From contig CATOCA020000001.1 in the NCBI GenBank assembly GCA_951406725.2, positions 1,984,001 to 2,048,000 of the forward strand: a DNA stretch of 64,000 bases. Reading direction: 5' to 3'. The position numbers are program-made. Shown one piece after another: positions 27,101 through 64,000 of this stretch. The DNA comes from Octopus vulgaris. Its lineage: Eukaryota. Numbering within the stretch: the first letter of the stretch is position 1; each line of letters opens with the position of its first letter.

Positions 27101-30100
27101 ATGATGTAAATTTTAATAAATGAAGTTCATCGTCATCTTTCGACCTCTATACTGGAAGCGATTCGATGGTTTGAGCAGGGCTGGCAAGCTGGGGAGCTGC
27201 AGCACACTCCAGTGTGAATTTTTATGGTTCCGAGAGCTAAATGCCCTTCCTCGTGCCAACCACCTCACAGTTCACAGGTTGCTTTTATGTGGCACTGCAC
27301 AGGCAATTTTATGTGCCACCACAGAGTTGCTTTAATGTGGTGCCACTTTAACATGGCACTGCACATCTGCTTTTATGAAGAAAGGTCACCAGTGTTTTTT
27401 ACCACCAGACGGATGAGTCTGAATATTTCTGCTGTGGAGTACAGGTCTTCTTGGGTACAGCTGGGTGCCAGGCACCTTTGTCTTTATCATATCACCTGAA
27501 ACTCTCCCATATCTTCTTGGGTGTCCCACTCCCATCTACTTTGAGAGATTGGCATTTCTTTATGGAGCTGTTGGCATCCAGCTCAGTTGTAAAGGTAAAT
27601 GTTTGTTTCTGCAGTTTATCTCCATAGAATTGAATCTGTATTTTTTAAGTAGCCTCCACATTTTACACTGCTGTTTCTCTATAATTTCAGAACATCAGAT
27701 GACAGAAGAAGCATCATCAATGTCTACCATGTTTTAAAGACTAAACGAAAATATACAAAACTTGTATAACATTGTTTTTACAAATCTGTGGAAGAATTCC
27801 TGTGAAACATTTGCTCTGAAATAATATATTTAGCCAATTTCTGAACATTATTGACTGGAATGTCAAGAAGATAAGACTGTGTCATGATTAAAGTTTGATA
27901 AATTTATGAAAGGGTTGCTAAACAAAGGTCACACTGGACAGAAATACAGCAGCAGAAGTGTATGTAAGGAACAAAGTATAAAAACGAAAGCAAGGAAAAT
28001 ATATTGACTGGGATTTGAGAGGAAAAGTAAGAGAAAAGAGAGAGAAAAAAATTATAGAATAGATTTTTGCCTTAACACCTCATAAAAGAGATGAGTTCAT
28101 ATGACTGAGGTATCTGTACAAATCCTTTTTTCGAAAAGGTAACCCAATGATGCACAAATATATTCATACAGGAGAGAAAGCGTACCACTGTGATATCTGT
28201 GGTAAATCATTCTCTCAAAGTACTGACTTCAAAACACACAAACATATTCAAACAGGGAGAAAGCGTACCACTGTGATATCTGTGGTAAATCATTCTCTCA
28301 AAGTACTGACTTCAAAAACACAAACATATTCAAACACTGTAATCTGTGGTAAATCATTCCTCAAAGTCTGCTTCAAAGAACAAACATATTCAAACAGGAG
28401 AAAGCGTACCACTGTGATATCTGTGGTAAATCATTCTCTCAAAGTACTGACTTCAAAAGACACAAACATATTCAAACAGGAGAGAAAGCGTACCACTGTG
28501 ATATCTGTGGTAAATCATTCTCTCAAAGTACTGACTTCAAAAGACACAAACATATTCAAACAGGAGAGAAAGCGTACCACTGTGATATCTGTGGTAAATC
28601 ATTCTCTCAAAGTACTGACTTCAAAAGACACAAACATATTCAAACAGGAGAGAAAGCGTACCACTGTGATATCTGTGGTAAATCATTCTCTCAAAGTACT
28701 GACTTCAAAAGACACAAACATATTCAAACAGGAGAGAAAGCGTACCACTGTGATATCTGTGGTAAATCATTCTCTCAAAGTACTGACTTCAAAAGACACA
28801 AACATATTCAAACAGGAGAGAAAGCGTACCACTGTGATATCTGTGGTAAATCATTCTCTCAAAGTACTGACTTCAAAAGACACAAACATATTCAAACAGG
28901 AGAGAAAGCGTACCACTGTGATATCTGTGGTAAATCATTCTCTCAAAGTACTGACTTCAAAAGACACAAACATATTCAAACAGGAGAGAAAGCGTACCAC
29001 TGTGATATCTGTGGTAAATCATTCTCTCAAAGTACTGACTTCAAAAGACACAAACATATTCAAACAGGAGAGAAAGCGTACCACTGTGATATCTGTGGTA
29101 AATCATTCTCTCAAAGTACTGACTTCAAAAGACACAAACATATTCAAACAGGAGAGAAAGCGTACCACTGTGATATCTGTGGTAAATCATTCTCTCAAAG
29201 TACTGACTTCAAAAGACACAAACATATTCAAACAGGAGAGAAAGCGTACCACTGTGATATCTGTGGTAAATCATTCTCTCAAAGTACTGACTTCAAAAGA
29301 CACAAACATATTCAAACAGGAGAGAAAGCGTACCACTGTGATATCTGTGGTAAATCATTCTCTCAAAGTACTGACTTCAAAAGACACAAACATATTCAAA
29401 CAGGGGAGAAAGCGTACCACTGTGATATCTGTGGTAAATCATTCTCTCAAAGTACTGACTTCAAAAGACACAAACATATTCAAACAGGAGAGAAAGCGTA
29501 CCACTGTGATATCTGTGGTAAATCATTCTCTCAAAGTACTGACTTCAAAAGACACAAACATATTCAAACAGGGAGAAAGCGTACCACTGTGATATCTGTG
29601 GTAAATCATTCTCTCAAAGTAGACTTCAAAAGACACAAACATATTCAAACAGGAGAGAAAGCGTACCACTGTGATATCTGTGGTAAATCATTCTCTCAAA
29701 GTACTGACTTCAAAAGACACAAACATATTCAAACAGGAGAGAAAGCGTACCACTGTGATATCTGTGGTAAATCATTCTCTCAAAGTACTGACTTCAAAAG
29801 ACACAAACATATTCAAACAGGAGAGAAAGCGTACCACTGTGATATCTGTGGTAAATCATTCTCTCAAAGTACTGACTTCAAAAGACACAAACATATTCAA
29901 ACAGGGGAGAAAGCGTACCACTGTGATATCTGTGGTAAATCATTCTCTCAAAGTACTGACTTCAAAAGACACAAACATATTCAAACAGGAGAGAAAGCGT
30001 ACCACTGTGATATCTGTGGTAAATCATTCTCTCAAAGTACTGACTTCAAAAGACACAAACATATTCAAACAGGAGAGAAAGCGTACCACTGTGATATCTG

Positions 30101-63100: not shown

Positions 63101-64000
63101 GGTAAATCATTCTCTCAAAGTACTGACGTCAAAAGACACAAACATATTCAAACAAGAGAGAAAGCGTACCACTGTGATATCTGTGGTAATTCATCCTCTC
63201 AAAGTACTGACTTCAAAAGACACAAACATATTCAAACAGGGGAGAAAGGGTACCACTGAGACATCTGTGGTAAATCATTCTCTCAAAGTACTGACTTCAA
63301 AAGACACAAACAATTCATAAAGTAGAGAAAGCGTACCACTGTGATATCAGTGGTAAATCATTCTCTCAAAGTACTGACTTCAAAAGACACAAACATATTC
63401 AAACAGGGGAGAAAGCGTACCACTGTGATATCTGTGGTAAATCATTCTCTCAAAGTACTGACTTCAAAAGACACAAACATATTCATAAAGTAGAGAAAGC
63501 GTACCACTGTGATATCTGTGGTAAATCATTCTCTCAAAGTACTGACTTCAAAAGACACAAACATATTCATAAAGTAGAGAAAGCGTACCACTGTGATATC
63601 TGTGGTAAATCATTCTCTCAAAGTACTGACTTCAAAAGACACAAACATATTCAAACAGGAGAGAAAGCGTACCACTGTGATATCTGTGGAAACTCATTCT
63701 CTCAAAAGTACTGACTTCAAAAGACACAAACATATTCAAACAGGGGAGAAAGCGTACCACTGTTATATCTGTGGTAAATCATTCTCTCAAAGTACTGACT
63801 TCAAAAGACACAAACATATTCAAACAGGAGAGAAAGCGTACCACTGTTATATCTGTGGTAAATCATTCTCTCAAAGTACTGACTTCAAAAGACACAAACA
63901 TATTCAAACAGGGGAGAAAGCGTACCACTGTGATATCTGTGGTAAATCATTCTCTCAAAGTACTGACTTCAAAAGACACAAACATATTCAAACAGGGGAG

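What the first reader, a model, noticed from the sequence alone, without database searches (positions are those of the whole stretch)
28168..64000. A >35-kb satellite made from one zinc finger
Seen: about 425 near-identical 84-bp units of a single finger, extending beyond the window. Known: multi-finger C2H2 genes usually have tens of fingers that differ at helix positions -1/2/3/6, even the minisatellite-like PRDM9 array varies there, and cephalopods have a large clustered C2H2 expansion. Here the DNA, including synonymous sites and contact residues, is homogenised. Inference: one finger of a ZNF exon underwent runaway amplification into satellite DNA (gene-to-satellite conversion). The alternative is a giant poly-finger gene of >10,000 aa whose frame breaks are assembly errors. 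Either would show how cephalopod ZNF arrays are generated.
Basis: partly seen in the sequence, partly recalled or inferred. Interest (0 to 1): 0.85.

Follow-up and report, generated by a model that had tools for sequence, protein, structure and literature searches.

The report
Satellite DNA from one zinc finger
At least 36 kb of an octopus-like genome is about 427 head-to-tail copies of one 84-base zinc-finger coding unit that lacks a zinc-binding residue and now drifts like non-coding satellite DNA, a clear but modest example of a gene fragment becoming a repeat array.

Summary
An 84-bp tandem array runs from about 28,168 to the window end at 64,000: 424.9 copies by TRF and 427 full units by my alignment, 232 of 429 segments perfect. 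Each unit encodes one C2H2-like finger plus linker. The consensus has Gln where the last zinc-binding His should be; only 5 of 375 84-bp units carry His. Substitutions look neutral: 18 synonymous, 87 missense and 6 nonsense among 111 distinct changes, against 45/192/15 possible (p=0.71). In addition, 52 of 427 units are not 84 bp, 11 carry stops, and the finger phase changes 47 times. The array is layered: a decayed left edge, a 17-kb core at 0.23% divergence, and a 15-kb 3' part at 2.2% with shared haplotypes and a 27-unit duplication. A remnant of a different finger abuts the left edge. An Octopus vulgaris gene model ends its mixed four-finger block with the same Gln-bearing finger. I read this as gene-to-satellite conversion, not a giant gene. 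Its true length and genome-wide abundance cannot be checked here. My literature searches found no description of it. Interest is moderate.

The parts
28101..28167 (+). Remnant of a different, decayed finger at the left junction. It reads ..LRYLYKSFFRKGNPMMHKYIHTGEKAY, keeps the canonical IHTGEK ending, and is preceded by an in-frame stop.
   Evidence: It has 24 differences from the monomer over the 67 aligned bases; translations are. No further finger or monomer copy lies in 1-28100.
28168..28475 (+). Decayed edge units 1-4, of 84, 79, 63 and 82 bp.
   Evidence: divergence from consensus is 8.63%.
28476..31665 (+). Units 5-42: 38 units, 24 of them perfect.
   Evidence: divergence is 0.91%.
31666..31927 (+). 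Rearranged patch of truncated and partly duplicated monomers, of 69, 81 and 112 bp.
   Evidence: divergence is 19.4%.
31928..49377 (+). Homogenised core: 208 units, 171 of them perfect. Nearly all variation sits at one linker site, as 22 units with a 1-bp deletion and 8 with A>G at unit position 5.
49378..64000 (+). Older, diverged part: 175 units, 37 of them perfect, 2.2% from consensus, with variant haplotypes shared by neighbouring units. It is cut by the window end.
55262..56017 (+). Block of units 324-332 that share a multi-site haplotype (1C>A, 4G>T, 5A>G, 77T>A, 78A>G, 80T>G).
   Evidence: lag-1 sharing.
59626..60549 (+). First copy of a 27-unit (2,268-bp) internal duplication, units 376-386.
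   Evidence: Variants are shared at lag 27 with units 403-413.
61894..62817 (+). Second copy of the 27-unit internal duplication, units 403-413.

Best explanation
This is a non-coding tandem array (a satellite or very large minisatellite) whose 84-bp monomer is one C2H2 finger plus linker taken from an octopus ZNF exon. The inferred history is as follows. Neighbouring fingers in a ZNF exon are 84-bp paralogues, so misaligned exchange or slippage can duplicate a single finger. Once identical neighbours exist, unequal crossing-over expands and homogenises them. The amplified finger carries Gln in place of the last zinc-binding His, so no selection holds the frame. The array then evolves by molecular drive, giving a recently expanded and almost uniform core, an older part with locally shared variants and a 27-unit segmental duplication, and decayed units at the edge. 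Shown here: the tandem structure, the finger origin, the missing ligand, the neutral substitution pattern, the frame breaks, the layered structure, and a matching finger in a normal multi-finger context. Inferred: the mechanism of amplification, the absence of protein function, and any chromatin role.
For: Structure: TRF gives period 84 and 424.9 copies; 232 of 429 segments are perfect. Finger origin: Pfam zf-C2H2 scores 6e-89 on 20 units but aligns only profile positions 1-20 of 23. The consensus peptide [28 protein letters not shown] has the pattern C-x2-C-x12-H-x3-Q. Only 5 of 375 84-bp units have His at residue 28, and only 7 canonical C2H2 pattern matches occur in the + frames of the array. 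Neutrality: 111 distinct substitutions split 18 synonymous, 87 missense and 6 nonsense, against 45/192/15 of 252 possible (binomial p=0.71), and 36/38/37 by codon position. The 53 variants seen in 2 or more units, which cannot be random read errors, split 6/44/3 (p=0.28). The ligand codon His24 carries the most distinct missense changes, 6. Breaks: 52 of 427 units are not 84 bp, 11 have a stop, 13 have lost Cys8, Cys11 or His24, and the finger phase changes 47 times, with a longest run of 52 units. Long ORFs (maximum 1,303 aa) are uninformative because two of the three + frames of the consensus lack stops. Array dynamics: variants are shared at lags 1-4 and 27 units, and divergence by region is 8.6%, 0.91%, 0.23% and 2.2%. 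Parent context: 67 bp of a different finger with 24 differences sit at the junction, and nothing finger-like lies in 1-28100. P0396, an O. vulgaris gene model, has four unlike fingers, and the last matches the monomer in 29 of 33 residues, including all helix residues and the Gln. Taxon: the best named hits of the flanking RT-like ORF are O. vulgaris (89% over 43% of the query) and O. bimaculoides (65-69%).
Against: 351 of 427 units still keep Cys, Cys and His24 without a stop, and 255 of 375 84-bp units encode the consensus peptide exactly. A very young array would look like this whether or not it is translated. Of the 64 indel columns outside the rearranged patches, 28 are one recurrent 1-bp deletion. 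That deletion equals a GGGG-to-GGG shortening of the second commonest linker allele, so some frame breaks could be homopolymer miscalls. If all of them were errors, units 127-255 would form one finger-phase ORF of 129 units (read from the map). The transversion-to-transition ratio of distinct variants is 75:35. That is close to what random error would give, so some singletons may be assembly noise. No reads, expression data or second assembly could be consulted, and neither genome-wide copy number nor chromosomal location is known.
Confidence: 0.8

Rival explanations
1. This is a giant functional poly-finger gene, or its 3' exon, of several thousand residues, and its apparent frame breaks are assembly errors.
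For: Two + frames of the unit are open, so stop-to-stop ORFs reach 1,303 aa. 28 of 64 indel columns are a single recurrent 1-bp deletion that could be a G-run miscall. Predicted poly-finger proteins of 2,000-5,800 aa exist in public sets, so gene callers do accept such models.
Against: The consensus finger lacks its last zinc ligand, and only 5 of 375 units have His. Nonsense and ligand-destroying substitutions are shared between units, so they are real, and synonymous changes show no excess. Indels other than the recurrent one also break the phase. An in-frame stop lies just upstream at the junction, and no N-terminal domain or further exon-like ORF was seen in 26-28 kb. Identical contact residues in hundreds of fingers would specify no useful DNA site. 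No near-identical protein turned up: the best was 55% identity among the 120 listed and at most 48% among the 150 listed.
Confidence: 0.04
2. The array is real but much shorter, tens of units, and the 17-kb near-perfect core is an assembler over-expansion of a repeat.
For: 171 of 208 core units are identical, so nothing inside the core anchors its length. The window ends inside the array. Variation in the core is almost entirely at one homopolymer-like site.
Against: The flanking 3.2 kb and the 3' 15 kb carry position-specific variant combinations and a 27-unit duplication that an over-expansion artefact would not create. So at least about 215 units have individual signatures. The spacing of the core's deletion-bearing units is irregular rather than a copied block.
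Confidence: 0.12
3. This is an internal tandem-repeat region of a transposable element, or a captured gene fragment amplified within one, rather than an in-place expansion of a ZNF exon.
For: Retroelement debris lies 2 kb upstream, an RT-like ORF at 25409-26074 on the minus strand, with an inverted partial copy at 8183-8369. The left junction is abrupt, with only about 67 bp of neighbouring finger. A review states that tandem repeats inside transposable elements are a common seed of satellites (PMC5615363, passages seen).
Against: No terminal repeat or transposase was found next to the junction. The RT fragment is on the other strand and 2 kb away. The junction keeps finger sequence in phase with the array.
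Confidence: 0.08

Closest known systems
PRDM9 zinc-finger 'coding minisatellite' (PMC3890296; title and abstract seen in the listing)
   Same: Both are 84-bp head-to-tail finger repeats that are highly similar at the DNA level and turn over by unequal exchange.
   Different: PRDM9 arrays have on the order of ten to twenty intact fingers in one exon behind KRAB and SET domains, are translated, and vary mainly at DNA-contact residues; the array size and domain order are from my own knowledge. Here there are at least 427 units, the last ligand is missing, variation is spread evenly over codons, and the frame is broken.
The 70-90-bp tandem repeat reported in the flanks of Octopus bimaculoides C2H2 genes and likened to human beta-satellite (Albertin et al. 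2015, Nature 524:220). This is recalled; the paper is not held, and neither its text nor its supplements were seen.
   Same: Both involve an octopod genome, a period within 70-90 bp, and an association with the C2H2 family.
   Different: I cannot tell whether that repeat is finger-derived or has this sequence. No intact C2H2 gene lies in the 28 kb upstream here. As I recall it, that report was a statistical enrichment and did not describe a 36-kb single-finger array.
Classical satellite DNA evolving by unequal crossing-over and concerted evolution (review PMC5615363, passages seen)
   Same: It shares the long head-to-tail array, homogenisation, locally shared variants, a segmental higher-order duplication and decayed edge monomers.
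   Different: The seeds named in the passages I saw are rDNA spacers and transposable elements. Here the seed is a protein-coding domain whose frame is still legible. Genome-wide abundance and heterochromatic location are not shown.
Gene-bearing macrosatellites such as D4Z4 (DUX4) and DXZ4 (PMC3018141 and PMC3081327, search listings only)
   Same: Both are tandem arrays whose unit derives from, or contains, coding sequence.
   Different: Those units are kilobases long and hold a whole ORF. Here the unit is one 28-codon domain.

Membership tests
C2H2 zinc finger domain (Pfam PF00096) | Four zinc ligands in the pattern C-x2-4-C-x12-H-x3-5-H | tested here: not met
   The consensus is C-x2-C-x12-H-x3-Q. 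Only 5 of 375 84-bp units have His at residue 28. Pfam aligns only profile positions 1-20 of 23. Only 7 canonical pattern matches occur in the + frames of the array.
C2H2 zinc finger domain (Pfam PF00096) | Overall sequence similarity to the family profile, with a TGEKP-type linker | tested here: met
   zf-C2H2 scores 6e-89 (288 bits) over 20 units, and zf-H2C2_2 scores 1.2e-72. The linker is TGEKA, not TGEKP.
Satellite DNA | Long head-to-tail array of hundreds of monomers | tested here: met
   424.9 copies over 35.7 kb, open at the 3' end; 427 full units.
Satellite DNA | Non-coding: no selective constraint on any reading frame | tested here: met
   The split of synonymous, missense and nonsense changes is 18/87/6 observed against 45/192/15 possible (p=0.71), with an even spread over codon positions. 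Shared variants alone split 6/44/3. All three minus-strand frames contain stops.
Satellite DNA | Concerted evolution with local homogenisation or higher-order structure | tested here: met
   Variant sharing peaks at lags 1-4 and 27, and the core is 0.23% from consensus against 2.2% in the 3' part. There is no regular higher-order period.
Satellite DNA | High genomic abundance, several arrays, heterochromatic or centromeric location | not testable with these tools
   No eukaryotic genome, read or cytological resource was available. One other locus with the same finger is implied by P0396.
PRDM9-type coding minisatellite | Every repeat encodes an intact finger in one continuous exon | tested here: not met
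   52 of 427 units are not 84 bp, 11 carry stops, and there are 47 phase changes.
PRDM9-type coding minisatellite | Variation concentrated at DNA-contact positions of the helix | tested here: not met
   Distinct non-synonymous variants per codon range from 1 to 6 with no peak at helix codons 17-23. The maxima are at Ala5 and His24.
Functional multi-finger ZNF gene | Start codon and upstream exon or effector domain, diverse fingers, and an open frame | tested here: not met
   A stop lies immediately upstream of the junction. There is no other finger in 1-28100. 255 of 375 84-bp units encode one identical peptide.
Octopus 70-90-bp C2H2-flanking tandem repeat (recalled from Albertin 2015) | Period of 70-90 bp | tested here: met
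   The period is 84.
Octopus 70-90-bp C2H2-flanking tandem repeat (recalled from Albertin 2015) | Lies in the flank of a C2H2 gene and has the same sequence family | tested here: inconclusive
   No C2H2 gene lies in the 28 kb upstream, and the downstream side is outside the window.

The most novel reading that the evidence does not exclude
Finger-derived 84-bp satellites like this one are the tandem repeats that accompany octopus C2H2 clusters. On this reading they are active players, not debris. They would supply long tracts of finger homology that promote unequal exchange and gene conversion among ZNF genes, acting as a finger reservoir. They might also nucleate heterochromatin or small RNAs over ZNF clusters. 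The gene family and its own satellite would then drive each other's expansion.
Probability: 0.1. Interest if true: 0.75.

Novelty: new variant of a known kind. Interest (0 to 1): 0.45.

Why it matters
Satellite seeds named in the review passages I saw are rDNA spacers and transposable elements (PMC5615363). Here the seed is still legible: one protein domain with its frame, a neighbouring finger remnant at the junction, and a matching finger in a normal multi-finger gene model. That gives a dated, stepwise picture of a gene fragment turning into a satellite, from edge decay through an old layer to a young homogenised core. It occurs in a lineage known for a very large C2H2 expansion: about 1,800 genes in O. 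bimaculoides and 2,289 in O. minor (PMC6279123, passages seen). It is also a practical warning. Such arrays can be called as giant or chimeric zinc-finger proteins, and they inflate counts of fingers and of open reading frames. It does not by itself explain how functional ZNF arrays arise.

Tried and rejected
1. Word-indexed homologue search with 20 units. Of 8,000 scored candidates, 4,761 passed E<=0.001. The 120 listed were generic ZNFs from vertebrates, insects and a limpet, with a best identity of 55%. There was no near-identical protein, and the result did not identify the taxon.

2. HMMER against 1.84 billion representatives. There were 118,900 hits at E<=0.001, and the 150 listed had at most 48% identity. 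Short near-identical fragments could rank below the 150 shown.

3. Pfam on seven translated stretches. Five had no family, including the RT-like ORF.

4. Rfam on 1-32000 and tRNA search found nothing.

5. Search for monomer copies or fingers in 1-28100 with blastn-short, tblastn and pattern scans. Only chance-level matches appeared (E of 0.33 or more).

6. Search for the kinase part of P0396 in the window. It is absent, so the window is not that locus.

7. Regular higher-order repeat. No regular higher-order period appeared; sharing peaks only at lags 1-4 and at one 27-unit duplication.

8. The idea that all frame breaks are homopolymer errors. The ratio of the recurrent deletion to its possible parent allele is 22:8 in the core but 5:47 in the 3' part. 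A uniform error process does not explain that, and other indels and stops remain.

9. Single-strand fold of a dimer. The z-score is -2.66, from a small hairpin over the two Cys codons. I did not take this as functional evidence.

10. Atlas search on the RING ORF. It returned only generic RING clusters below 0.9.

11. Literature. Seven searches and passages from six papers gave no description of a finger-derived satellite in cephalopods. Albertin 2015 is not held.

Not checked: any cephalopod genome assembly or reads, and the metagenome contigs and viral contigs collections, which were closed. I left the prokaryotic genome-contig scan unused as irrelevant. Supplements of the genome papers were closed and may describe the flanking repeat.
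Full report
**The observation**

The window contains no N. Tandem Repeats Finder reports one array at 28335-64000 with period 84, 424.9 copies, 97% matches and a score of 67,948. Two short rows cover the decayed first units from 28153. From 28 kb on, GC content is flat at 0.36-0.37 and AT skew at +0.23 to +0.25, unlike the heterogeneous 28 kb before it.

I aligned 28101-64000 to the most frequent 84-mer with a wrap-around alignment. 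This gave 35,498 matches, 354 mismatches, 93 deleted and 48 inserted bases. It yields 429 segments: one flank remnant, 427 units and a 9-bp stub at the window end. Of these, 232 are identical to the consensus and 375 are exactly 84 bp.

**What the unit is**

In one + frame the consensus reads [28 protein letters not shown], which is a linker plus one finger. Pfam zf-C2H2 scores 6e-89 on a 20-unit translation, but each match covers only profile positions 1-20 of 23.

The reason is that the spacing is C-x2-C-x12-H-x3-Q: the position of the last zinc-binding histidine holds glutamine. Only 5 of the 375 84-bp units have His there. A pattern scan for canonical fingers finds only 7 matches in the + frames of the whole array. 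The linker is TGEKA, not TGEKP.

**Coding or not**

Two of the three + frames of the consensus have no stop, and all three minus frames do. Stop-to-stop ORFs of up to 1,303 aa are therefore expected from a near-perfect repeat and say nothing about coding.

The informative signals all point to no constraint:
- From 28476 on there are 111 distinct substitutions: 18 synonymous, 87 missense and 6 nonsense. The 252 possible single changes split 45/192/15 (binomial p=0.71).
- They fall 36/38/37 on codon positions 1, 2 and 3.
- The 53 variants present in two or more units cannot be random read errors. They split 6/44/3 (p=0.28).
- The codon of ligand His24 carries the most distinct missense changes, 6.
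- Of 427 units, 52 are not 84 bp, 11 carry a stop and 13 have lost Cys8, Cys11 or His24.
- The finger phase changes 47 times, and the longest run in one phase is 52 units.
- Variation does not concentrate on helix contact positions.

**A caveat on the frame breaks**

Outside the two rearranged patches there are 64 indel columns, and 28 of them are the same 1-bp deletion in the linker. The deleted form equals the second commonest linker allele with GGGG shortened to GGG, so a homopolymer miscall is conceivable.

However, the ratio of the deleted form to that allele is 22:8 in the core and 5:47 in the 3' part. A uniform error process does not predict that. Even if every such deletion were an error, a shared stop, other indels and the missing ligand remain. 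The largest finger-phase ORF would then be units 127-255, which is 129 units, read from the map.

The transversion-to-transition ratio among distinct variants is 75:35. That is near the random 2:1, so some singletons may be assembly noise. This does not affect the shared variants.

**Internal architecture**

Divergence from the consensus varies by region:

| Region | Units | Perfect units | Divergence |
|---|---|---|---|
| Edge units 1-4, 28168-28475 | 4 | 0 | 8.6% |
| 28476-31665 | 38 | 24 | 0.91% |
| Rearranged patch, 31666-31927 | 3 | 0 | 19% |
| 31928-49377 | 208 | 171 | 0.23% |
| 49378-64000 | 175 | 37 | 2.2% |

In the last part, variants are shared by neighbours, with sharing highest at lags 1-4. 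One example is the six-site haplotype of units 324-332. Units 376-386 recur as units 403-413, a 27-unit or 2,268-bp duplication. There is no regular higher-order period.

This layered picture has decayed edge monomers, an old layer with local duplications and a young homogenised core. It is what unequal crossing-over and concerted evolution produce in satellites (review PMC5615363, passages seen). It also argues that at least the roughly 215 non-core units are not an assembler artefact. The length of the 17-kb core has no internal anchor.

**Origin**

Immediately left of the first unit, 28101-28167 is finger-like but has 24 differences from the monomer over the 67 aligned bases. It reads ..LRYLYKSFFRKGNPMMHKYIHTGEKAY, with a canonical IHTGEK ending and an in-frame stop just before it. 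It is a remnant of a different finger, not an old monomer.

Nothing else finger-like or monomer-like lies in 1-28100. No ORF of 110 aa or more lies between 26075 and 28105.

A search with this remnant plus unit 1 returned 43 proteins. The highest identity, 68% over 90% of the query, belongs to P0396, a 224-aa Octopus vulgaris gene model named DCLK1-like. Its sequence is four unlike fingers followed by a kinase C-terminus. The fourth finger matches the monomer in 29 of 33 residues, including every helix residue and the Gln.

So the Gln-bearing finger exists in an ordinary mixed-finger context at another locus or species. The kinase part is absent from the window. Whether that model's exon is itself the edge of a sister array could not be checked.

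**Taxon**

The RT-like ORF at 25409-26074 on the minus strand has its best named hits in Octopus vulgaris (89% identity over 43% of the query) and O. bimaculoides (65-69%). The closest finger proteins are also from Octopus species. An octopod origin is supported, but the species is not fixed.

**Mechanism**

I commit to gene-to-satellite conversion at about 0.8 confidence. A ligand-defective finger of a ZNF exon was duplicated by misaligned exchange between 84-bp paralogous fingers. It then expanded and homogenised by unequal crossing-over, free of selection on the frame.

The tandem structure, finger origin, neutrality, layering and parent-like relative are shown. The exchange mechanism and the lack of function are inferred.

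Rivals:
- A functional giant gene: 0.04.
- A real but much shorter array over-expanded in assembly: 0.12.
- An element-borne repeat: 0.08.

**Comparison with the known**

The nearest concept is the PRDM9 'coding minisatellite' (PMC3890296, listing only). This array fails the tests of intact fingers, contact-site variation and a continuous exon.

From memory, Albertin et al. 2015 reported a 70-90-bp tandem repeat enriched in the flanks of octopus C2H2 genes and likened it to beta-satellite. The paper and its supplements could not be read, so I cannot say whether it is the same family.

Seven literature searches and passages from six papers turned up no description of a single-finger satellite. 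No near-identical protein appeared among the hits listed.

**Verdict**

I rate it a new variant of a known kind: a satellite whose seed is a single protein domain. Interest is moderate at 0.45. It is a clean natural example of satellite birth from an exon and a caution for ZNF annotation. It awaits read-level confirmation and a genome-wide census, and it does not by itself explain how functional finger arrays are generated.

Noticed in passing
window 10131-15823: A unit of about 2.1 kb is repeated three times in tandem (spacings 2,084-2,142 bp, 92-99% identity). Each copy holds an (ACAT)n microsatellite, at 11116, 13249 and 15328.
   Followed up: partly
window 24574-25024: A 68-bp tandem repeat with 6.6 copies, also readable as a 209-bp period. 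It is G+A-rich, lies just upstream of the RT-like ORF, and forms the local GC peak of 0.46.
   Followed up: no
window 25409-26074 (-) and 8183-8369: A reverse-transcriptase-like ORF fragment has no Pfam hit but 142 protein relatives, with Octopus vulgaris and O. bimaculoides as the best named ones. A 187-nt inverted partial copy (80% complementary) lies at 8183-8369.
   Followed up: partly
window 6301-6666 (+): A 121-aa ORF has a C3HC4 RING finger (Pfam PF13920, 5.6e-10). The Atlas search gave only generic RING clusters below 0.9. It may be an exon of a ubiquitin-ligase gene.
   Followed up: partly
window 1-425, 1392-1559, 2059-2092, 3361-3394: There are long (AT)n microsatellites, up to 161 copies, at the start of the window. 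GC is 0.29 in the first 2 kb.
   Followed up: no
protein P0396 (Octopus vulgaris gene model): This gene model fuses four C2H2 fingers to the C-terminal part of a DCLK1-like kinase, and the finger block ends inside the linker of the satellite-type finger. It looks like a chimeric prediction, possibly made at the edge of a sister array.
   Followed up: partly
window 28476-64000: Among 110 distinct substitutions in the array, transversions outnumber transitions 75 to 35. This is close to the random 2:1 and unlike the transition bias I would expect from memory for germline mutation. Part of the singleton variation may be assembly noise.
   Followed up: partly
window 36962-37129: The monomer forms a small hairpin over the two Cys codons when folded as single-stranded DNA. 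The z-score is -2.66, and 3 of 200 shuffles fold as well.
   Followed up: no
window 9213-9707 (+), 2110-2604 (-): Two 164-aa ORFs have no Pfam family. Their nature is unknown, and they may be transposable-element debris.
   Followed up: no
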